Shown here piece by piece: positions 6,736-49,459 of a DNA stretch of 51,540 bases (positions are counted from its first letter, which is position 1; every line of letters begins with the position of its first letter). Source of the DNA: Escherichia phage brachmannus. The DNA lies in sequence record ON711395.1; one strand, written 5' to 3'. Position numbers and translations under genes: made by a program. The notes under the pieces are model-generated. The model was not told the origin of the DNA. It made no database searches and saw only the letters and a list, made by a program, of their open reading frames with translations.

Positions 6736-6763
6736 TTGCACGTTTAACAAAAAGTGCTATCAT
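6736..6763 (+). promoter_or_regulatory. promoter-like TTGCAC-16-TGcTATCAT upstream of major capsid gene (overlaps inverted motif copy)
   Basis: -35-like hexamer, 16-bp spacer, extended -10-like TGnTATCAT. Confidence 0.4.
6742..6759 (-). promoter_or_regulatory. conserved motif copy in inverted orientation upstream of major capsid gene
   Basis: plus strand reads GTTTAACAAAAAGTGCTA. Confidence 0.5.
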
Positions 6764-16367: not shown

Positions 16368-16386
16368 TAGCACAATATGTTAAAGC
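16368..16386 (+). promoter_or_regulatory. conserved motif variant TAGCACAATATGTTAAAGC + 8-bp hairpin + TACAAT upstream of HNH gene
   Basis: same cassette architecture as early-gene copies. Confidence 0.5.
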
Positions 16387-16427
16387 GAAAACGGATTTTC
16401 GCTTTACAATTAATTAAGGAGATGATC

Positions 16428-16904
16428 ATGTGGCGTGATATTTTTTATTATAATGACGGTAAGTTATTTTGGGCTGTAGACGTAGGAAGAAGGATAAAGA
16501 AAGGAAGTGAGGCAGGAAGCGTAAGCAAAAGCAAGAAGAGTGGAGAAAGGGTTAGAATATCAATTGATGGAGAAAGATACTACAGGAGCAGGATAGTTTG
16601 GGAAATTCATAATGGAGAAATACCGCATGGAATGCAAGTTGATCACATAGATCACAACACAATGAACGACAATATTTCAAACTTAAGACTTGTTAGAATG
16701 AGTGTTAACAACAAGAATAAGTCGCTTTACAGGAACAGCAAGACGGGAATTACTGGGGTAAACTTTAGTCGCGGAAAATGGATTGCAAGAGCAAAGATTG
16801 ATGGTGTTAGGCATGAATTTTACTTTGATTCATTTCAGGATGCGGCAGAAAAGAGGATAGAGATTGAAGTTTTAAACAAATTCCACATAAACCACGGAAA
16901 GTAG
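16428..16904 (+). CDS. HNH homing endonuclease with AP2-like DNA-binding domain
   Basis: HNH motif VDHIDHN...NLRL; AT-rich with AGA/AGG arginine codons unlike surrounding genes; inserted between tail genes I and J; paralog at 35773-36246. Confidence 0.8.
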   Translation: MWRDIFYYNDGKLFWAVDVGRRIKKGSEAGSVSKSKKSGERVRISIDGERYYRSRIVWEIHNGEIPHGMQVDHIDHNTMNDNISNLRLVRMSVNNKNKSLYRNSKTGITGVNFSRGKWIARAKIDGVRHEFYFDSFQDAAEKRIEIEVLNKFHINHGK

Positions 16905-16907
16905 ATT

Positions 16908-16933
16908 TAACCAGCATTGCGCTGGTTTTTTTG
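16908..16933 (+). terminator. intrinsic terminator after HNH gene
   Basis: AACCAGC-ATTGC-GCTGGTT then T7. Confidence 0.65.
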
Positions 16934-16981
16934 TGCATTTATAATGAGCAAACCAATAAACAGCACAAAAGGTTAAAAGTC

Positions 16982-19900
16982 ATGGATAAATGTATGATAA
17001 GTGGCAGTAAGGGCGGAAGCAAAAAGCCATACGTGCCAAAAGAGATGGAAGATAACCTGATCTCGATAAACAAGATTAAAGTTTTGCTGGCTGTATCTGA
17101 TGGCGAGTGCGATCCAGACTTCACGTTGCGTGATCTTTATCTTGATGATGTTCCGGTTATTGCCAGCGATGGCACTGTTAACTATGAGGGGGTAACGGCT
17201 GAATATAGACCAGGTACACAGACGCAAGATTACATCCAGGGGTTTACTGACACATCAAGCGAGGTGACAGTTTCGCGAGATATTACAGCAGACAATCCCT
17301 ATATTATCTCTGTAACAAATAAAAATCTTTCTGCAATCAGAATCAAGATTCTGATGCCAGTTGGCATAAAACAGGAGGATAACGGCGATCTTGTTGGTGT
17401 AAGGGTTCAATATGCCGTAGATATGGCTGTTGATGGCGGTTCTTATAGCGAGGTTATGAGAGATGTAATTGACGGCAAGACAAGATCAGGATATGACCGC
17501 AGCAGAAGGATTGATCTTCCTAAGTTTGATGAGCGCGTTTTAATCAGGGTCAAGCGGCTGACTCCAGACAGCACATCTTCAAAGGTGACTGATAAAATCA
17601 AACTGCAAAGTTACGCTGAGGTTGTGGATGCAAAATTCCGTTATCCTCTGACTGGCCTTGTATTCGTAGAGTTTGACAGCGAATTGTTTCCTACGCAAAT
17701 CCCTAACATTTCTATAAAAAAGAAATGGAAGATTATTAATGTGCCAAGCAACTATGATCCAATATCTAGAGAATATCACGGGTCATGGGATGGGACTTTT
17801 AAAAAAGCGTGGTCAAATAATCCTGCTTGGGTTCTTTATGATCTGGTAACGAATCAGCGTTATGGACTTGACCAGCGAGAGTTAGGAATACAGATCGACA
17901 AGTGGAGCTTATACGAGGCTGGTGTTTACTGTGATCAGAAAGTTCCAGACGGTAAGGGCGGTACAGAGCCTCGCTACCTATGCGATGTGGTGATCCAGAA
18001 TCAGGTTGAGGCTTATCAGCTAATCCGTGACATTTGCTCAATCTTTCGCGGAATGAGCTTTTGGAATGGAGAGAGCTTATCAATCGTAATTGATAAACCG
18101 CGCGATCCATCATACGTGTTTACTAATGAAAACGTCATCAACGGTGATTTTCAGTACACAGCAGCAAGCGAAAAAAGCATGTACACGCAATGTAATGTGA
18201 CGTTTGACGACGAACAAAACATGTATCAGCAGGACGTAGAGGGGGTTTTTGATACTGAGGCGGCATTACGATTTGGATACAATCCAACAAGCATTACAGC
18301 GATCGGGTGTACACGCAGGAGCGAAGCGAATCGTCGCGGTCGGTGGGTTTTGAAAACAAACCTTAGAAGCACTACTGTAAACTTTGCTACCGGACTAGAG
18401 GGGATGATTCCATCCATAGGTGATGTGATTGCTATCGCTGATAATTTTCAGAGCAGCAATCTAACGTTAAATCTTTCGGGCCGAGTAATGGAAGTTTCAG
18501 GCTTGCAAGTTTTCGTTCCGTTTAAGGTTGATGCGCGTCCTGGTGATTTTATTATCATCAACAAGCCGGACGGAAAGCCAGTTAAGCGAACGATCTCAAA
18601 GGTGAGCGCAGACGGAAAAACCATTGAGTTAAATATTGGCTTTGGTTTTGATGTTAAGCCTGATACTGTTTTTGCGATTGACCGTACTGACCTTGCGTTG
18701 CAGCAATACGTTGTGACAACTATCAGCAAGGGTGATGACGAAAACGAGTTTACCTATTCAATCACGGCTGTGGAGTACGATCCGAACAAATACGACGAGA
18801 TTGATTATGGAGTAAACATTGATGACAGACCGACTTCAATTGTTCAGCCTGACGTGATGGCAGCGCCTGAGAACGTTAAGATCTCATCTTATTCTCGCGT
18901 CGTGCAGGGTGTTAGCGTTGAGACTATGGTTGTTTCATGGGATAAGGTTCCTTACGCATCGCTTTATGAAATGCAGTGGCGAAAAGGTGATGGTAACTGG
19001 CTGAATACGCCGCAGACAGCTAACAAAGAGATAGAGGTAGAAGGGATTTACTCTGGCAACTACCAAGTAAGGGTGAGATCCGTTTCTGCAAGCGGTAACG
19101 CTTCCCCGTGGTCAAAGATTGCAACCGCCACTCTGACAGGTAAAGTTGGCGAGCCAGGAGCGCCGATTAATCTTACGGCTTCTGATAATGAAGTTTTTGG
19201 CATTCGTGTCAAATGGGGTATGCCGGAAGGATCGGGCGATACGGCTTACATTGAGCTTCACCAATCGCCAGATGGGACGGTGGAAAACTCAAGTTTGCTT
19301 ACGCTGATCCCGTATCCTCAATATGAGTATTGGCATAGCACGTTACCAGCGGGTCAAGTTGTATGGTATAGAATCCGTAGCGTTGACAGGATCGGCAACG
19401 TTTCCGGCTGGACTGACTTTGTTCGCGGCATGGCGTCAGATGATGTTGAATCTGTTTTAGGCGACATTCTGGACAAGATTTTTGATACCGAAGCGGGTCA
19501 AGAAATCAAAGAGAACGCCATAGACAGTGCAAACAAAATCAAAGACCAGGCGCAATCAATCATCCAGAACGCATTGGCAAACGATGCCGATGTGAAGTGG
19601 ACGCGAGTACAAAACGGAAAGCGTAAGGCTGAATATGGTCATGCACTGGAGCTTATTGCTACCGAAACGGAGGCGCGAGTAACTCAAATCGAAGAGTTAA
19701 AGGCGTCAATTGATGAAGATATAGTTTCAAGTATCAAAACCGTTCAGGAAGCGATTGCCAATGAATCAGAGACGCGAGCTACTCAAGTGCAGCAGCTTGA
19801 TTCTAAATTTACGAAGGAAATAGACGGCGTAAAACGAGATACGGCTGCAAGCATTGGCGAGGTAAGGCAAACCATTACCAATGAATCAGAAGCGCGTGCG

Positions 19901-20560
19901 CAAGCCGTTCAGCAGCTTGACGCTAAGTTTTCGAAAGAGATTAATGACCTTAACGATGCAATCAAGGTTGATGTTGAGGCGAACATATCAGAAGTAAGAC
20001 AGGCTATCGCTAATGAGACAGAGGCAAGGGTTCAGGCTGACCAGGCTTTAACAGCCAAATTCGGAGACGTTGAATCAGCACTAGCCGAAAAACTTGATTC
20101 GTGGGCTAACGTTGATTCTGTTGGCGCTAAGTACGCTATGAAATTGGGCCTTACTTACAAGGGGCAGAAGTACAGCGCAGGAATGATCATGCAGTTGTCG
20201 CAATCTTCTCAAGGCCTGATCTCGCAAATCTTGTTCGATGCTAACAGGTTCGCGATCATGACTAGCTCTACTGGCGGTACGTTTACATTGCCGTTTGTAG
20301 TAGAAAATAACCAGGTGTTTATCAACAGTTTGTTGGTGAAAAACGGGTCCATTACTAACGCAATGATTGGTAACGTGATTCAGTCAAATAACTTTGTTCA
20401 GAATCAGCAAGGATGGAGGCTTGATAAAAATGGTAACTTTGAGAACTACGGAACGAGAGCGGGGGAAGGAGCTACAAAATTCACTAACGAAGGCTTAAAG
20501 GTGAAAGATGCAAATGGACGATTGAGGGTTGAGATAGGGAGAATAACCGGAAGTTGGTAA
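16982..20560 (+). CDS. central tail fibre / host specificity protein (lambda J-like)
   Basis: about 1190 aa; N-terminus GSKGGSKKPYVPKEMEDNL resembles lambda J N-terminus; alternative start ATG 16994; C-terminal coiled-coil repeats. Confidence 0.85.
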   Translation: MDKCMISGSKGGSKKPYVPKEMEDNLISINKIKVLLAVSDGECDPDFTLRDLYLDDVPVIASDGTVNYEGVTAEYRPGTQTQDYIQGFTDTSSEVTVSRDITADNPYIISVTNKNLSAIRIKILMPVGIKQEDNGDLVGVRVQYAVDMAVDGGSYSEVMRDVIDGKTRSGYDRSRRIDLPKFDERVLIRVKRLTPDSTSSKVTDKIKLQSYAEVVDAKFRYPLTGLVFVEFDSELFPTQIPNISIKKKWKIINVPSNYDPISREYHGSWDGTFKKAWSNNPAWVLYDLVTNQRYGLDQRELGIQIDKWSLYEAGVYCDQKVPDGKGGTEPRYLCDVVIQNQVEAYQLIRDICSIFRGMSFWNGESLSIVIDKPRDPSYVFTNENVINGDFQYTAASEKSMYTQCNVTFDDEQNMYQQDVEGVFDTEAALRFGYNPTSITAIGCTRRSEANRRGRWVLKTNLRSTTVNFATGLEGMIPSIGDVIAIADNFQSSNLTLNLSGRVMEVSGLQVFVPFKVDARPGDFIIINKPDGKPVKRTISKVSADGKTIELNIGFGFDVKPDTVFAIDRTDLALQQYVVTTISKGDDENEFTYSITAVEYDPNKYDEIDYGVNIDDRPTSIVQPDVMAAPENVKISSYSRVVQGVSVETMVVSWDKVPYASLYEMQWRKGDGNWLNTPQTANKEIEVEGIYSGNYQVRVRSVSASGNASPWSKIATATLTGKVGEPGAPINLTASDNEVFGIRVKWGMPEGSGDTAYIELHQSPDGTVENSSLLTLIPYPQYEYWHSTLPAGQVVWYRIRSVDRIGNVSGWTDFVRGMASDDVESVLGDILDKIFDTEAGQEIKENAIDSANKIKDQAQSIIQNALANDADVKWTRVQNGKRKAEYGHALELIATETEARVTQIEELKASIDEDIVSSIKTVQEAIANESETRATQVQQLDSKFTKEIDGVKRDTAASIGEVRQTITNESEARAQAVQQLDAKFSKEINDLNDAIKVDVEANISEVRQAIANETEARVQADQALTAKFGDVESALAEKLDSWANVDSVGAKYAMKLGLTYKGQKYSAGMIMQLSQSSQGLISQILFDANRFAIMTSSTGGTFTLPFVVENNQVFINSLLVKNGSITNAMIGNVIQSNNFVQNQQGWRLDKNGNFENYGTRAGEGATKFTNEGLKVKDANGRLRVEIGRITGSW
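19640..20060 (+). repeat. intragenic tandem repeats (three units of about 35 codons) in J-like gene
   Basis: protein repeats I(A/T)NE(S/T)E(A/T)R...VQQLD(S/A)KF(T/S)KEI. Confidence 0.6.
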
Positions 20561-20586
20561 AAAAGGGGGCATGGCCCCCTTTAATT
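20560..20586. terminator. bidirectional terminator between J and convergent minus-strand genes
   Basis: GGGGGC...GCCCCC stem flanked by A-run and T-rich tract. Confidence 0.65.
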
Positions 20587-21201
20587 TTAATCATAGTGCG
20601 ATGAATTTATAACCAAAACAGATGATGCCGTGTAAATACCAACAGGACCAGGAGTTTGCGCAACCTGCCTAGATAAAGAATATACCCCGTTGCCATACGC
20701 GGCAGCTTGAGACTCAAATATCATGAATCCACCTAAAGACGGATTGGGCACAGAGTTTAAAGCTGTTAGTGATGGCATGATGGCGCAAGGGTATCCCAAG
20801 TTAACGTCAAAAGCGATCCCGCTTACAGATACAAGTTTTGCATCCAAAGGCTTCATCTTTCCATGATAAACCATCTCACCATTAGCATTATAAAAAGCTA
20901 TTCCGTGACTACCAGGAGGAGTAACCATGTTGCTAAAAGCATAAACAAATACCTCGCCTTGATTGTCGGACTTTTCTATCTTTATTGCGTGCTTCCCACC
21001 ATTATTAAACTGAGTAAATGCTATGTATGATTTTGATGTTAACCTTACAAAAAAGAAGCACGGTCTATTTATTGGTATAGAAGTATTAAAAACGGTTCCT
21101 GTTCTTGCTGATATTTTCCCTTTATCTATAAGGTTAACAGGAGTGAAATCTGGACTTAACCACAATGAACCGTCCGGTTTTTTTATGCTCATCCCGTACA
21201 T
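20587..21201 (-). CDS. hypothetical protein (possible tail fibre-associated)
   Basis: ORF on minus strand; ATG at 21199-21201 with GGGGG RBS-like run (track start 21213 is TTG). Confidence 0.4.
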   Translation of the reverse strand: MYGMSIKKPDGSLWLSPDFTPVNLIDKGKISARTGTVFNTSIPINRPCFFFVRLTSKSYIAFTQFNNGGKHAIKIEKSDNQGEVFVYAFSNMVTPPGSHGIAFYNANGEMVYHGKMKPLDAKLVSVSGIAFDVNLGYPCAIMPSLTALNSVPNPSLGGFMIFESQAAAYGNGVYSLSRQVAQTPGPVGIYTASSVLVINSSHYD

Positions 21202-21203
21202 TA

Positions 21204-21482
21204 TTACCCCCAAAAAGTATATATATATCTTGAGTCAGATCCAGAAAGGCCACTCCATGTAACGGTATCACCACTTACACCCAACTTTGGAGCGCCTGGA
21301 TCGCCTCCTCGCCACGAATTAATTCCAACATATATTGCTTTCAAAGACTTACCTGGCGGCCTGTTTGAGTAGGTCTTACTGCCGGATGATTGGGTAAATT
21401 TATCCAAGAAAAAAACTGGAGTTAAAAGACCAGTAACATTTCTACCTTGCTCATCATATATTGCATACCCATATTCAGCCAT
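21204..21482 (-). CDS. hypothetical protein
   Basis: 92-aa ORF with GAGGTG RBS; ends in T5G5 homopolymer region abutting downstream ORF. Confidence 0.4.
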   Translation of the reverse strand: MAEYGYAIYDEQGRNVTGLLTPVFFLDKFTQSSGSKTYSNRPPGKSLKAIYVGINSWRGGDPGAPKLGVSGDTVTWSGLSGSDSRYIYTFWG

Positions 21483-21750
21483 TTTTGCACCTCAAATCAA
21501 TGAATTTTCTTTCATCTTGCCAACGGTTGATAAATTTAACTTCTTTATTGTCAACGCTCAACCTGTATTGCTTTTGGCTGAATCTGTTTTCGCGGACAGC
21601 ATTAATTTTAACTTCATGGAATCCGTTAACAGGGAATGTTTTAACGTTAAATTTTGCCGTGCAATCGATCTCCTTGAAGTTGCCAGTAGGCGAAGAAGAA
21701 CATCCGGTCAGAGCGGCTACGGTGGCGATAACTGCGATTAATTTTTTCAT
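21475..21750 (-). CDS. lipoprotein, candidate Cor/Llp-like superinfection exclusion protein
   Basis: signal peptide with lipobox LTGC; AAGGAG RBS; small size; located next to tail fibre genes with own promoter region. Confidence 0.45.
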   Translation of the reverse strand: MKKLIAVIATVAALTGCSSSPTGNFKEIDCTAKFNVKTFPVNGFHEVKINAVRENRFSQKQYRLSVDNKEVKFINRWQDERKFIDLRCKNG

Positions 21751-21806
21751 CTTCAATACTCCTTAGTTGTTGTTGGCTGTAACTATACACGATCCGACAA
21801 GCTGAG

Positions 21807-21823
21807 TTTAGCAAAAAGTGCTA
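21807..21823 (-). promoter_or_regulatory. conserved motif variant + TATAGT upstream of lipoprotein gene (minus strand)
   Basis: minus strand reads TAGCACTTTTTGCTAAAC, TATAGT 21 bp after TTGCTA. Confidence 0.55.
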
Positions 21824-22193
21824 CTTGTTATTTTTTGTTTTCCAGTGTTATCGAATTTAAGACGGCGCAAATTTGGCGCAAATTTTAACCAACACAAGAG
21901 CAATAAACAACCAATAAAATAGATATATGCATATAAAATCAATAGTTTATTTATTTATGTATGTATATTTGTTTTTTCTTGTTATCTGTGTTTCTTGTGG
22001 TTTTGGTTGTTTGTGGTGATTTTTCTTTCTGAGTATCTGCATGTGCCATCATTCATGTGTATGTATATAATCCGGCGTATCTGAGAGAACAAGGGAACAA
22101 GAAAAATAACACATGTTAATCATTAACTTACGTGTCAGATTTGTTTTCTTGCCATCTGAGAACGTTTAGAAAACAGAAAAAACAAAACAACTA

Positions 22194-22221
22194 TTGACTA
22201 AATCAACCAAATGGCTACAAT
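22194..22221 (+). promoter_or_regulatory. sigma70-like promoter TTGACT-16-TACAAT upstream of recombination module
   Basis: near-consensus hexamers about 30 nt upstream of GAGGAG RBS of 22252 gene. Confidence 0.6.
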
Positions 22222-22251
22222 GCACACACAAAGCAACGAGGAGCATTAAAG

Positions 22252-31161: not shown

Positions 31162-31580
31162 TGGCTATAACTGATAAAGGAGATTATCTTGAGTTTTACG
31201 AAAGAGATCCAACCGACACGAGAAAGGAAGTTAATCACCAGATAGATAGCTTTCAGTGGTTGACTTATGCTCATCCTTATTTGCTAGCGTGGCATACGGT
31301 AAACGAGAATGAGAAGTCGAAAGTAACGGCGATGATTGATCAGCAGTCCGGCTTGGTTAAGGGGGTAAGCGATTTCATCATCCTGATTGGTTCAAACGGA
31401 AAATACCCCTTTGCAGCGATTGAGATCAAACGAGTGAATAAATCAGGCAAGGGGAAAGCATCACCAGTCAGCGATGAACAAAAGGCTTTTTTGCGTCGCG
31501 TTCGCAGCTTAGGAGGATTCGCTGCGGTCGCCTACGGATTTAATCAGTTTAAGTTAGCTATTGAATACATGCTTAAATAG
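31161..31580 (+). CDS. VRR-NUC-like PD-(D/E)XK nuclease
   Basis: motif GVSDFIIL...AIEIK; start overlaps helicase stop. Confidence 0.5.
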   Translation: MAITDKGDYLEFYERDPTDTRKEVNHQIDSFQWLTYAHPYLLAWHTVNENEKSKVTAMIDQQSGLVKGVSDFIILIGSNGKYPFAAIEIKRVNKSGKGKASPVSDEQKAFLRRVRSLGGFAAVAYGFNQFKLAIEYMLK

Positions 31581-31596
31581 CACTTTTTGTTAAAAC
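31578..31596 (+). promoter_or_regulatory. conserved motif TAGCACTTTTTGTTAAAAC + hairpin + ATAAT
   Basis: overlaps stop TAG of VRR-NUC gene; hairpin TGGCGC...GCGCCA. Confidence 0.6.
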
Positions 31597-34706: not shown

Positions 34707-35197
34707 TGAGCATAAAGAACAGGGTAGCGGCTGCGGCCTTTGGCGTTGCGGTTGCCTTGACTTCTCCACTTCTTGAAGAGATCGAAGGTGTAAGATACAA
34801 GCCATACAAAGATATTGCTGGAGTATGGACGGTTTGCGCAGGAATCACCGGACCAGATGTTATCCTGGGGAAAACGTACACTAAAAAAGAGTGTGATGCT
34901 TTGTTGGCTAAGCATATCCAGGTTGCTAAAAAGGAAGTTGATAAGCAAGTTAAGGTTGACATTCCTGATAGTATGCGTGCAGCAATGTACTCATTCACCT
35001 ACAATGCAGGTGTGGGAGCTTTCAGAAATTCAACAATGCTGAAACTCATCAACCAGGGGAAATTAAGCGAGGCTTGCGATCAGCTTTATCGTTGGACGTA
35101 TTACCATAACCCAAAAACAGGAAAGCGCGAGAAGTCTAAAGGCTTACTTAACAGGCGCAAGGTCGAATACAAATATTGCACAATGGATCTGAAATGA
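34706..35197 (+). CDS. SAR endolysin (GH24 lysozyme)
   Basis: N-terminal signal-anchor-release-like hydrophobic segment; catalytic E-x8-D-x5-T motif ([16 protein letters not shown]). Confidence 0.8.
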
Positions 35198-35589
35198 TGA
35201 AGAAATTTTTAATCGCACCAATCGCAATGGCGGTGATCTTGTCTGGATGTTCAAGCGTTACGCCACTGACCGGATTAATCGGCAGTAAGCCGGAAATCAC
35301 AGCACAGGCTGGCGCGGAGAACGTGAAGCAGACAGTCGGCATTACAGCAAAGCAGGACACTAGCACAAAACAGGAAACCACAATAAAGGAATCTGCGGTT
35401 GATAAGGTGGACACGTCCAGCAAGAAGGATTTCACAACATCAACCATTCAGGCCAATACCATCAAGGCAGACAAAATTCAGGTCGTGCAGGGTAATAACG
35501 GCAGATGGTACGATCCAATAATCATATGCGTGGTTGTGTTCATTGTGCTGATTTGTCTTTACTGGAGGGAAAAGAAAAAGGAGGCTTAA
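35194..35589 (+). CDS. unimolecular spanin (u-spanin, T1 gp11-like)
   Basis: N-terminal lipoprotein signal with lipobox LSGC plus C-terminal transmembrane helix; start overlaps endolysin stop. Confidence 0.7.
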
Positions 35590-38932: not shown

Positions 38933-38950
38933 TTTTAACAAAAAGTGCTA
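38933..38950 (-). promoter_or_regulatory. conserved motif + hairpin GCCAGGTG...CCTGGC + CATAAT, minus strand
   Basis: overlaps stop of methyltransferase-like gene; upstream of 38878 start. Confidence 0.6.
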
Positions 38951-42173: not shown

Positions 42174-42713
42174 TTTGACGGTTAGCACCAGGATTGTGAT
42201 CGAAATAATCAAAAGTAATCATTCGTAATCAAATCACGTCAAAATGATGATTGCCTTTGCAAATTTGATGAGAAAAGTAATCACGTTTAATCATTGGTTG
42301 CAGGGGAGATAGTGAAACCTTCCCCTCTTGCCTCACTTTTCCGCCCGGCTGTCAGTGGTTGTTATGTTCCGTTCCCGCCTGTTCTTTTGTTGACCTTCCG
42401 CAAAATACGATAACAAAAAATAACAAACAGTACCTATATAATACATTGAAAAATAAGTATTATTTATTTATATGTATCTATATATTCTCTTTTGTTATCT
42501 TGGTTATTGTGGTATTTGGTGGGGTATATAGTTTTTGTGTATCTGTATGTGTGTATGGGTATGTAGGGGGCATATATATCTATATGGCACTTTCCGCGAG
42601 AAAACTTCGATAACAGGCAATGATAACATTGATTTATAAGGAAAAATAACGCCCATATTGTTATTGTGCCACCATATAAAATTGATAAAACACGCGGGAA
42701 CAAGAAAAAACAG

Positions 42714-42771: not shown

Positions 42772-43236
42772 ATGAGCGAGCAATCATTCACTGACACGCT
42801 GCGCCGTGCAGCTATTATGCTGGCTAATGGCGAGGAAGAGACGATCAAGATTCCTGACGCGTATTTGCAGGTCCACATGTTCGGTAAGAAGTCGGCAAGC
42901 AATCCGGCGGCCTACATTCGCCAGATCATGAGTCGAGTGCCAGAAGTCGCCGAGCGGGGGCGCGTATCCGTTACCCGTGGCGTTTACGGGCCGGAAGATG
43001 AAAACTTCGGTAGCACTTTCTACGAGGTGCGGATTGTTGAAGGCCGTCGCAAGGTTTACAACAAAGAGGCACTGGAAAAGGCAGTGCGCCAGGCTAAGCG
43101 CAAGGTTGCAGAGGCGATCATTGATATGTCACCAAACCTGGCAAACTATGCGCCGGAAGAGTACGAAACATTATCAAAGGCCGTCGCTGACTTTCACGCG
43201 ATGATCAAAAAAACTTTCCTGGAGGATGAGCAATGA
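42772..43236 (+). CDS. hypothetical protein (first plus-strand early gene)
   Basis: 154 aa, AGGAGG RBS, downstream of TTGACA-17-GATAAT promoter. Confidence 0.55.
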   Translation: MSEQSFTDTLRRAAIMLANGEEETIKIPDAYLQVHMFGKKSASNPAAYIRQIMSRVPEVAERGRVSVTRGVYGPEDENFGSTFYEVRIVEGRRKVYNKEALEKAVRQAKRKVAEAIIDMSPNLANYAPEEYETLSKAVADFHAMIKKTFLEDEQ

Positions 43237-43505
43237 AAAAGGCATTAATCAGCGTTTTGGCGGCAATGGCATTCCTGACCGGATGCAAAGAAGATGGCGC
43301 GCATGTTGGCAATGTGCAGATGGCTAACCCTGGCGATGACTACAGCGTAAGGGAGCTATTCACCGCTGACGGTTGCACCGTTTACCGATTCTATGACGAT
43401 CGCACTGTTTACTTCACCAACTGTAAGGGCACGACTATCTGGGAAGTGTCGAAAAGCAATGGCAAAGGCACGAAGACAGAACATATGACCGTCGAGACAA
43501 AATAG
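43233..43505 (+). CDS. small lipoprotein
   Basis: signal peptide with lipobox LTGC. Confidence 0.5.
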   Translation: MKKALISVLAAMAFLTGCKEDGAHVGNVQMANPGDDYSVRELFTADGCTVYRFYDDRTVYFTNCKGTTIWEVSKSNGKGTKTEHMTVETK

Positions 43506-43521
43506 CACTTTTTGTTAAAAC
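43503..43521 (+). promoter_or_regulatory. conserved motif + hairpin GCCAGGC-GCAAA-GCCTGGC + ATAAT
   Basis: overlaps stop TAG of lipoprotein gene. Confidence 0.6.
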
Positions 43522-43577
43522 GCCAGGCGCAAAGCCTGGCATAATAGCCTCATCGAAACGAGATTGAGGAAACAAAA

Positions 43578-43763
43578 ATGGCACGTCGCATCACCAAAGA
43601 CCTTAAAGTCCTGAACAAAGAAAACGTAGTTAAAATCCTGGTTATCTGGGGCTACAACGAAGAAACAGCAAAGCAGAAGGTAGAGGCAGGTTATGACCTG
43701 GCTGTAAAAGCAATGCCAAACGATGACGCCAAAGGCATTGCAAACTATGTAGCGTTCTTTTAA
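43578..43763 (+). CDS. hypothetical protein
   Basis: 61 aa with RBS, after motif-hairpin cassette. Confidence 0.45.
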   Translation: MARRITKDLKVLNKENVVKILVIWGYNEETAKQKVEAGYDLAVKAMPNDDAKGIANYVAFF

Positions 43764-49440: not shown

Positions 49441-49459
49441 TAGCACTTTTTGTTAAAAC
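49441..49459 (+). promoter_or_regulatory. conserved motif + hairpin AAGGGCA...TGCCCTT
   Basis: after TAATAG. Confidence 0.55.

What the first reader, a model, noticed from the sequence alone, without database searches (positions are those of the whole stretch)
21475..21750. Candidate receptor-blocking lipoprotein next to the fibre genes
A small lipoprotein gene with a classic lipobox (LTGC) lies on the opposite strand next to the tail fibre and J region and has its own motif-plus-TATAGT leader. This mirrors the arrangement of cor and llp, which protect infected cells by inactivating the phage receptor.
Basis: partly seen in the sequence, partly recalled or inferred. Interest (0 to 1): 0.55.

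Follow-up and report, generated by a model that had tools for sequence, protein, structure and literature searches.

The report
Receptor-blocking lipoprotein of a T1-like phage
The small gene is real and is very probably this T1-like phage's "superinfection exclusion" lipoprotein, which shuts off the phage's own receptor (predicted to be BtuB) in infected cells; this kind of gene at this position has already been described, so the finding is correct but ordinary.

Summary
Window 21475-21750 (-) encodes a 91-aa outer-membrane lipoprotein precursor (MKK, hydrophobic core, lipobox LTGC, Ser at +2). It has a good ribosome-binding site and its own promoter region: a phage motif found 18 times in the window, followed by TATAGT.

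The window is a Warwickvirus (T1-like, Drexlerviridae). The gene leads a three-gene minus-strand operon (lipoprotein, 92-aa protein, 204-aa protein) that converges on the J tail-tip gene. This is the published [quoted passage not shown].

The cassette is 88-94% identical to that of BASEL phage Bas04 and 56-73% identical to that of Bas06. These are the two BtuB-dependent Drexlerviridae in that collection. FhuA-dependent relatives carry classical cor in the same slot, behind the same promoter.

The database label "Cor" for the full-length protein comes from the signal peptide; the mature domain fails the PHROG and NCBIfam Cor models. A mature-only profile-profile comparison with Cor, T5 Llp and BF23 Llp still supports remote homology (E 4e-6, controls far lower), and the three-cysteine pattern matches.

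Best reading: a divergent Cor/Llp-type lipoprotein that jams BtuB from the periplasm. It is already known as a class, and untested experimentally for this allele.

The parts
21807..21823 (-). Conserved phage promoter-associated 17-mer TAGCACTTTTTGCTAAA, centred about 41 nt upstream of the expected transcription start
   Evidence: There are 18 copies in the window against 0.59 expected. Each is followed after about 20 nt by a -10-like hexamer and a gene. The same motif precedes the exclusion-type lipoprotein gene in Bas04, Bas05, Bas06 and Bas01.
21782..21787 (-). -10-like hexamer TATAGT
   Evidence: It lies 19 nt downstream of the motif. The simple sigma-70 scan found no canonical -35/-10 pair on this strand.
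21759..21764 (-). Shine-Dalgarno sequence AAGGAG, 8 nt before the ATG
   Evidence: Read directly from the sequence.
21475..21750 (-). Lipoprotein precursor gene (91 aa, stop included). Signal peptide is residues 1-16 (21703-21750), the lipidated Cys17 codon is 21700-21702, and the mature domain is 74 residues after that Cys, with invariant Cys30 and Cys88
   Evidence: The protein is 100% identical in 14 GenBank phages. The AF2 model of the mature domain is all-beta with pLDDT 80.
21204..21482 (-). 92-aa protein (phrog_557, legacy name 'outer membrane protein', same PHROG family as T1 ST32). Its start overlaps the lipoprotein stop by 8 nt. It has no signal peptide and is a presumed part of the receptor-binding module
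   Evidence: It is 91% identical to Bas04 and 73% to Bas06.
20587..21201 (-). 204-aa protein (phrog_425, legacy name 'membrane associated protein', same PHROG family as T1 ST31). It has no signal peptide and is the presumed BtuB-type receptor-binding protein
   Evidence: It is 88% identical to Bas04 and 64% to Bas06, but only 23-25% to the FhuA-type proteins of T1 and Bas05.
20562..20582 (.). GC-rich hairpin between the convergent J gene and the lipoprotein operon. T-runs follow on both strands, so it is a likely bidirectional terminator
20563..21700 (-). Exchangeable cassette: the stretch with no DNA similarity to the FhuA-type congener Bas05. It is bounded by the J stop codon and the lipobox Cys codon
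   Evidence: The blastn similarity map and alignment are.
16931..20560 (+). J-like central tail-tip protein gene (context)

Best explanation
The gene encodes a superinfection-exclusion (receptor-blocking) outer-membrane lipoprotein of the Cor/Llp type. It belongs to the BtuB-specific allele of the host-recognition cassette of T1-like phages.

Proposed mechanism:
1. The gene is transcribed from its own phage-motif promoter, of the type that precedes most non-structural genes of this phage.
2. The precursor is exported, lipidated at Cys17 and sorted to the inner leaflet of the outer membrane (Ser at +2).
3. A Cys30-Cys88 disulfide ties the ends of a small all-beta domain.
4. The domain binds the periplasmic face or plug of the TonB-dependent transporter BtuB and locks it in a state whose extracellular loops no longer accept the phage's receptor-binding protein. 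This is the mechanism shown structurally for T5 Llp on FhuA.
5. That prevents secondary infection and loss of progeny on cell debris.

What is shown: the gene, its signals, its conservation, its place in the cassette, and its co-variation with BtuB use in relatives. What is inferred: export, the disulfide, BtuB as target, the periplasmic jamming mechanism and the timing of expression.
For: - Lipoprotein signals and translation signals are present.
- The window is a Warwickvirus.
- J, then 204-aa, 92-aa and lipoprotein genes on the opposite strand, is exactly the architecture of Bas04 and Bas06. Identities are 94/91/88% and 56/73/64%. These are the two Drexlerviridae that BASEL found experimentally to depend on BtuB (PMC8594841 S5 Table).
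- FhuA-dependent T1 and Bas05 carry cor there instead. YncD (Bas10) and LptD (Bas01) phages carry other alleles.
- Against Bas05 (same genus), DNA similarity runs through J to its stop codon. It is lost at 20563-21700 and resumes at the lipobox Cys codon, with the promoter motif, 5' UTR and first codons nearly identical. The mature domain is therefore an allelic replacement of Cor that travels with the receptor-binding genes.
- A mature-domain profile (30 representatives) against a mature Cor + T5 Llp + BF23 Llp profile gives hhalign probability 86.6%, E 4.4e-6, score 32.2 over 52 columns from Cys to Cys. The reversed control scores 10.6 and 30 column shuffles score at most 13.9.
- Three cysteines are invariant, matching the lipid Cys plus the Cys11-Cys58 disulfide of Llp (PMC9586334).
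- BtuB-blocking by a phage lipoprotein has precedent in BF23/DT57C Llp (PMC4728585). Periplasmic binding has been shown for Llp-FhuA and Rtp45-LptD.
Against: - No experiment exists for this allele.
- The mature domain alone does not match PHROG 1119. None of 30 family members does.
- The full-length score against NCBIfam 'phage exclusion lipoprotein Cor' is 18.6 bits, below the cutoff of 31.
- The mature profile does not find Llp in the PDB by hmmsearch.
- The unrelated u-spanin also hits PHROG 1119, so the database label is not evidence.
- The fold match to Llp is no better than matches to many SH3/Tudor/BAH-like barrels. AF2 is reported to mispredict free Llp.
- BtuB is assigned by similarity to Bas04 and Bas06, not measured for this phage.
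- Here the presumed receptor-binding genes sit downstream in the same operon, which is unusual for a gene expected to act early.
Confidence: 0.72

Rival explanations
1. It is an exclusion lipoprotein, but its target or mechanism differs. It might block FhuA like classical Cor, another TonB-dependent transporter, TonB coupling, or a post-adsorption step such as DNA entry, rather than jamming BtuB.
For: The target is inferred only from relatives. The 204-aa protein has 45% identical homologues in Stx phages and a 41.5% identical one in JenP2, whose receptors were not examined here. Rtp45 shows that non-TBDT targets and steric rather than allosteric mechanisms exist.
Against: FhuA-dependent congeners carry a clearly different allele in the same slot. 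Both BtuB-dependent BASEL Drexlerviridae carry this allele. Ser at +2 predicts outer-membrane rather than inner-membrane placement.
Confidence: 0.12
2. It is an accessory factor of the adsorption apparatus, for example a chaperone or host-range cofactor for the 92-aa and 204-aa proteins, rather than an exclusion factor.
For: It is co-transcribed and translationally coupled with the two presumed receptor-binding genes. [quoted passage not shown]
Against: A lipidated, exported protein is in the wrong compartment to assist cytoplasmic virion assembly. Homologous 92-aa/204-aa pairs in VT2-Sakai and JenP2 have no such lipoprotein nearby. The gene occupies exactly the cor slot with the cor promoter.
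Confidence: 0.06
3. It is a lysis-related or otherwise unrelated small lipoprotein (spanin-like or a moron), and its resemblance to Cor/Llp comes only from a shared signal peptide.
For: All HMM-level hits to Cor disappear when the signal peptide is removed. A family member sits alone on conjugative plasmids.
Against: The lysis cassette with its own u-spanin is elsewhere, at 35197-35589. The mature-only profile-profile score is far above the controls. The cysteine pattern and the genomic slot match Cor/Llp.
Confidence: 0.07
4. It is a chance ORF and not a gene.
For: None beyond its small size.
Against: It is conserved as protein in 83 phage records and in 25 clusters at 50% identity, with invariant cysteines. 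It has a Shine-Dalgarno sequence, a promoter motif and translational coupling to the next gene.
Confidence: 0.01

Closest known systems
Cor of phage T1 / phi80 / N15 (FhuA-blocking exclusion lipoprotein; NCBIfam NF047972, PHROG 1119)
   Same: - Small outer-membrane lipoprotein with a near-identical signal peptide and lipobox (LTGC).
- Two further cysteines near the two ends of the mature domain.
- Encoded just beyond the receptor-binding genes downstream of J, on the strand opposite J.
- In the congener Bas05 it sits behind the same promoter motif and 5' UTR.
   Different: - The mature domain is 74 residues rather than 58.
- It has no HMM-level similarity to Cor: NF047972 scores 18.6 bits against a cutoff of 31, and the mature domain gives no PHROG hit.
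- It is linked to BtuB-type rather than FhuA-type receptor-binding genes.
- Those genes are downstream in the same operon here, whereas in T1 they follow J on the other strand.
Llp of phage T5 (PDB 8A60, 7QJF)
   Different: It comes from a different phage family (Demerecviridae) and its receptor is FhuA. Sequence identity is about 13-22% in the aligned columns. The fold match is not specific.
Llp of BF23 / DT57C (BtuB-blocking lipoprotein of T5-like phages)
   Same: The presumed target is the same, BtuB. Expression of DT57C llp lowers plating of BtuB-dependent phages more than 100-fold (PMC4728585). The two share the motifs C-T-G/A-x-F/Y and KVR-x-x-DRF. BLASTP gives 30% identity over 67 residues, and mature-only hhalign gives E 1.9e-3.
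   Different: BF23 Llp is a firm PHROG 1119 member even without its signal peptide (4.4e-15). The window protein is not. Only about 30 mature columns align.
Rtp45 / Bas18 exclusion lipoprotein (LptD-blocking, small siphophages)
   Same: It occupies the same genomic slot in the same phage group, as the first gene of a minus-strand operon that also carries the receptor-binding gene (Bas01 layout). It is a periplasmic lipoprotein with an internal disulfide that changes extracellular loops of the receptor.
   Different: No sequence similarity was detected here. The target is not a TonB-dependent transporter, and the mechanism is steric rather than plug-mediated.

Membership tests
Cor/Llp superinfection-exclusion lipoproteins | Signal peptidase II signal peptide with lipobox, and outer-membrane sorting (no Asp at +2) | tested here: met
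   MKK, an 11-residue hydrophobic core, then LTGC, with Ser at +2. It is one of only three credible lipobox genes in the window. Pfam LPAM_1 gives only a weak hit.
Cor/Llp superinfection-exclusion lipoproteins | Small mature domain with two cysteines near its ends forming an internal disulfide (Llp Cys11-Cys58) | tested here: met
   The mature domain is 74 residues. Cys30 and Cys88 are invariant in 30 representatives down to 23% identity and align with the Cor/Llp cysteines.
Cor/Llp superinfection-exclusion lipoproteins | Mature domain matches the family HMM (PHROG 1119) | tested here: not met
   The full-length protein scores E 5.9e-8. The mature domain gives no hit at E<=1, whereas mature T1 Cor (3e-19), T5 Llp (2e-10) and BF23 Llp (4e-15) all match. 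None of 30 mature family members matches. The u-spanin also hits this model at 7.8e-6 through its signal peptide.
Cor proper (NCBIfam NF047972, equivalog) | Score above the curated cutoff of 31 bits | tested here: not met
   The window protein scores 18.6 bits. T1 Cor scores 52.4. BF23 Llp scores 15 and T5 Llp gives no hit.
Cor/Llp superinfection-exclusion lipoproteins | Remote homology of the mature domain at profile-profile level | tested here: met
   hhalign of A4 against mature Cor+Llp+BF23 Llp gives probability 86.6%, E 4.4e-6 and score 32.2 over 52 columns. The reversed control scores 10.6 and 30 column shuffles score at most 13.9. Single comparisons give E 2.5e-3, 5e-4 and 1.9e-3. The target alignment was home-made and is dominated by close Cor sequences.
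Cor/Llp superinfection-exclusion lipoproteins | Fold like Llp | tested here: inconclusive
Cor/Llp superinfection-exclusion lipoproteins | Encoded beside the receptor-binding gene(s) at the tail-tip locus, with its own promoter | tested here: met
Cor/Llp superinfection-exclusion lipoproteins | Allele co-varies with the receptor used by the phage | tested here: met
   This allele occurs in the BtuB-dependent phages Bas04 and Bas06. Cor occurs in the FhuA-dependent phages T1 and Bas05. Other alleles occur in YncD and LptD phages. Only six phages were compared here; the published surveys are larger.
Cor/Llp superinfection-exclusion lipoproteins | Expression blocks adsorption through the cognate receptor, and the protein binds the receptor's periplasmic face | not testable with these tools
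   This needs plating and adsorption assays or a complex structure. No complex prediction tool was available.
Spanins (o-/u-spanin lipoproteins) | Located in the lysis cassette and matching a spanin family | tested here: not met
   The u-spanin is at 35197-35589 (phrog_1804, 6.7e-48). The finding's gene is 13 kb away and has no spanin hit.

The most novel reading that the evidence does not exclude
This lipoprotein family may be a separate, very divergent branch of the Cor/Llp superfamily specialised on BtuB. It would move as a self-contained 'receptor-switch cassette' (mature exclusion domain plus two receptor-binding genes, window 20563-21700). Its recombination junctions would be the J stop codon and the lipobox cysteine codon, so that the conserved promoter, 5' UTR and signal peptide act as a universal docking handle for new alleles. 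Stand-alone homologues on conjugative Enterobacteriaceae plasmids would then be receptor-masking defence genes against BtuB- or other TBDT-dependent phages and colicins.
Probability: 0.3. Interest if true: 0.45.

Novelty: already known. Interest (0 to 1): 0.22.

Why it matters
Exclusion lipoproteins tell, from sequence alone, which outer-membrane protein a phage uses. They also show how that protein can be switched off from the periplasm.

For this window the practical yield is a receptor prediction (BtuB) and an annotation for a gene that most GenBank records call 'hypothetical protein'.

The analysis also gives a caution. The 'Cor' label given by PHROG-based annotators to small lipoproteins can rest on the signal peptide alone.

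A validated BtuB-jamming lipoprotein from a T1-like phage would give a second, independent example beside BF23 Llp for structural comparison with Llp-FhuA. The concept, however, is established.

Tried and rejected
- **Pfam:** nothing beyond a weak lipid-attachment-site hit.
- **phmmer against PDB sequences:** only noise.
- **Foldseek against the PDB with the full-length model:** no significant hit.
- **PHROG 1119 hit as evidence of Cor membership:** rejected after the signal-peptide controls.
- **Profile of the full-length family against the PDB:** Llp was the best hit (E 0.004), but only over the signal peptide and the first cysteine motif. The hit vanishes with the mature profile.
- **The search for related loci:** The close alignment returned only two near-identical IMG/VR loci, so no broad context survey of distant members was possible.
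- **Canonical sigma-70 promoter scan:** found nothing on the gene's strand. The motif's TTGYTA lies about 22 nt from the -10, too far for a normal -35.
- **Literature search for the motif string:** only unrelated primers.
- **Spanin or lysis role:** considered and rejected.
- **FhuA as target:** considered and rejected, because FhuA-dependent congeners carry a different allele.

Full report
**1. What is there**

The minus strand of window 21475-21750 carries a 91-codon ORF. The ATG at 21750 is preceded at 8 nt by AAGGAG (21759-21764).

The product starts MKKLIAVIATVAALTGC. That is a textbook signal peptidase II signal: two lysines, a hydrophobic core and lipobox LTGC. Ser follows the lipidated Cys17, which by the E. 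coli +2 rule (established knowledge) predicts outer-membrane sorting.

A strict lipoprotein pattern finds only three credible lipobox genes in the 51.5-kb window. They are this one, the u-spanin (35197-35589) and an orphan at 43233-43505. Block-shuffled sequence gives about 1.8 mostly short pattern matches.

**2. The leader**

Upstream lies TAGCACTTTTTGCTAAA (21807-21823, minus strand), followed after 19 nt by TATAGT (21782-21787). The 17-mer occurs 18 times in the window at up to 3 mismatches, against 0.59 expected, and none of 100 shuffles reached 18.

Nearly every copy is followed after about 20 nt, often a GC-rich dyad, by a -10-like hexamer, a Shine-Dalgarno sequence and a gene. T1 and Bas04 each have 21 copies.

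So the 'motif-plus-TATAGT leader' is real and is a family-wide promoter type. The TTGYTA inside the motif sits about 22 nt from the -10, too far for a standard -35, and the simple sigma-70 scan finds no promoter on this strand. How this promoter is recognised is therefore open. Most copies precede replication, methylase and small non-structural genes. An early or middle expression class is an inference from that.

**3. Where the window comes from, and the gene's neighbourhood**

The region is 93-97% identical to Warwickvirus phages (JLBYU10, tonijn, vB_EcoS-95; Drexlerviridae, Tempevirinae). The lipoprotein is 100% identical in 14 GenBank records. Most call it 'hypothetical protein', and one record with a 93% identical copy (Kalemo) calls it 'Cor superinfection exclusion protein'.

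It is the first gene of a three-gene minus-strand operon:
- the lipoprotein;
- a 92-aa protein (21204-21482), whose start overlaps the lipoprotein stop by 8 nt;
- a 204-aa protein (20587-21201), which starts 2 nt after the previous stop.

The operon ends at a hairpin (20562-20582) with T-runs on both strands, shared with the convergent J-like tail-tip gene (16931-20560).

The two downstream proteins have no signal peptide. They fall in the PHROG families of T1 ST32 and ST31 but are only about 23-31% identical to them. In T1 those two genes follow J on the plus strand, and only cor is on the minus strand.

**4. Which receptor**

[quoted passage not shown] Its alleles match the terminal receptor without exception (PMC8594841). 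A 2026 preprint confirms four unrelated RBP families, for FhuA, BtuB, LptD and YncD.

I tested this directly against the BASEL receptor table.
- **BtuB.** Bas04 has the same three-gene layout, with 94%, 91% and 88% identity for the three proteins. Bas06 has it with 56%, 73% and 64%.
- **FhuA.** Bas05 (same genus as the window) and T1 have the ST32/ST31 pair on the plus strand plus cor.
- **YncD and LptD.** Bas10 (YncD) and Bas01 (LptD) have unrelated alleles.

The window phage is therefore predicted to use BtuB, and its lipoprotein is the exclusion-type gene of the BtuB allele.

**5. An allelic replacement of cor**

Against Bas05, DNA similarity (about 90%) runs through J to its stop codon. 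It is absent at 20563-21700 and resumes at 21701, the lipobox Cys codon. From there it continues through the signal-peptide codons, 5' UTR, TATAGT and motif into the recombination genes.

The unit that is swapped is thus the mature lipoprotein domain plus the two receptor-binding genes. This accounts for the shared signal peptides of otherwise dissimilar lipoproteins. It is also the strongest contextual argument that this protein does for BtuB what Cor does for FhuA.

**6. Is it a Cor/Llp family member?**

The full-length protein hits PHROG 1119 ('Cor') at E 5.9e-8, and BLASTP to T1 Cor aligns only residues 1-34. Several controls show that the PHROG hit is carried by the signal peptide.
- The mature domain gives no hit at E<=1. 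Mature T1 Cor (3e-19), T5 Llp (2e-10) and BF23-type Llp (4e-15) do hit.
- None of 30 mature family members hits.
- The unrelated u-spanin hits the same model at 7.8e-6.
- The curated NCBIfam Cor model gives 18.6 bits against a cutoff of 31.
- The mature family profile finds nothing in PDB sequences.

By sequence-to-HMM criteria it is therefore not a member.

More sensitive tests do link it.
- An exhaustive profile search found a small family: 25 clusters at 50% identity.
- Within that family Cys17, Cys30 and Cys88 are invariant. This is the arrangement of Llp, with a lipid Cys plus a Cys11-Cys58 disulfide 'constraining the termini', a bond that paper notes is shared with Cor (PMC9586334).
- Mature-only profile comparisons give E 2.5e-3 to the T1 Cor family, 5e-4 to T5 Llp and 1.9e-3 to BF23 Llp. 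All are colinear.
- Against a combined mature Cor+Llp+BF23 Llp profile, hhalign gives probability 86.6%, E 4.4e-6 and score 32.2 over 52 columns from cysteine to cysteine. The reversed control scores 10.6 and 30 column shuffles score at most 13.9.

My reading is that it is a remote branch of the Cor/Llp superfamily, not Cor proper.

**7. Mechanism**

Llp binds the periplasmic face and plug of FhuA and folds two extracellular loops inward over the pb5 site. The authors expect the same for other TonB-dependent transporters. BF23/DT57C Llp blocks BtuB-dependent phages when expressed from a plasmid. Rtp45 binds periplasmic LptD and alters its extracellular loops.

BtuB is a TonB-dependent transporter. 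The most likely mechanism here is therefore periplasmic jamming of BtuB by the lipid-anchored, disulfide-clamped domain. This is inference from homology, context and precedent, and nothing here measures it. I put it at about 0.72.

The rivals are a different target or mechanism, an adsorption-apparatus accessory, and an unrelated lipoprotein. They are listed separately, each with the result that would refute it.

**8. Novelty**

The class and its genomic logic are published (PMC8594841; PMC9586334; PMC11990801). A 2026 paper explicitly reports Cor-like genes in BtuB-using Tempevirinae and suggests that the Cor/Llp mechanism extends to other receptors (PMC13164509). The protein itself is already in GenBank many times.

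What this analysis adds is minor:
- a receptor prediction for this window;
- the demonstration that the 'Cor' label rests on the signal peptide, while a mature-domain link can still be recovered;
- the position of the cassette junction at the lipobox codon.

I found no experimental test of this allele in the papers I could search.

Noticed in passing
window, 18 sites (e.g. 6743-6759 -, 31578-31594 +, 38934-38950 -, 43503-43519 +, 49441-49457 +); also L003 (T1) and L004 (Bas04), 21 sites each: The 17-mer TAGCACTTTTTGYTAAA is centred about 41 nt upstream of the expected start. A 20-nt spacer follows, which is often a GC-rich dyad of variable sequence, and then a -10-like hexamer (CATAAT, TATAGT or TATAAT). 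The TTGYTA is about 22 nt from the -10, too far for a normal -35, which suggests an activator- or factor-dependent promoter class conserved across Drexlerviridae. No description was found under that string in the searchable literature.
   Followed up: partly
window 43233-43505 (+): A second orphan lipoprotein gene (90 aa, MKKALISVLAAMAFLTGCKEDG..., Lys at +2) lies in the region of small non-structural genes. It matches phrog_6360 (2e-8) of unknown function, and Bas04 has an equivalent ORF. It could be another envelope-modifying or exclusion factor.
   Followed up: partly
window 16377-16904 (+), motif at 16368-16384: An HNH endonuclease gene (175 aa...HIDHNTMNDNISNL...) is inserted between the tail assembly gene and J. 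It is absent from Bas04, Bas05, Bas06 and T1 at this position (blastn gap 16368-16909) and present in Kalemo. A degenerate copy of the promoter motif overlaps its upstream start codon.
   Followed up: partly
L009 (VT2-Sakai 42793-43643) and L010 (JenP2 18789-19687): The 204-aa protein has 45% identical homologues in about 100 Stx-converting short-tailed phages, located after the tail fibre gene and before lom. It also has a 41.5% identical homologue in the Nonagvirus JenP2. Each is paired with a small upstream gene (annotated 'outer membrane protein' in VT2-Sakai) but has no lipoprotein of this family nearby. The module is shared across very different phage morphotypes.
   Followed up: partly
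L014 (E. coli plasmid pC16EC0292-3, CP088671.1 59038-59301); protein cluster P0018/P0060: A member of the same lipoprotein family (87 aa; cluster representative P0018 33% identical to the window protein) is seen on 439 contigs of Enterobacter, Salmonella, E. coli and Citrobacter. It sits as a stand-alone gene on ~80-kb conjugative MOBF/MPF_F plasmids, next to dnaB and tra genes and not near tail genes. It is possibly a plasmid-borne receptor-masking defence.
   Followed up: partly
window 35197-35589 (+): The u-spanin hits PHROG 1119 'Cor superinfection exclusion protein' at E 7.8e-6 through its signal peptide alone. Automatic 'Cor' annotations of small phage lipoproteins should be checked on the mature domain.
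   Followed up: yes
window about 21830-22250 and about 42480-42580: Two intergenic regions have unusual T/G-rich, low-complexity runs (e.g. gtttcttgtggttttggttgtttgtggtg and ggtattgtggtatttggtggggta...tgtatgtgtgtatgggtatgtag). At least the first (21830-22250) separates divergently transcribed operons. Their function is unknown.
   Followed up: no
one search hits MG065649.1, MG065680.1: Several records named 'Campylobacter phage' (A113, A143, about 50 kb) carry this E. coli T1-like cassette at 53-63% protein identity. They look like T1-like coliphage genomes under a Campylobacter label.
   Followed up: no
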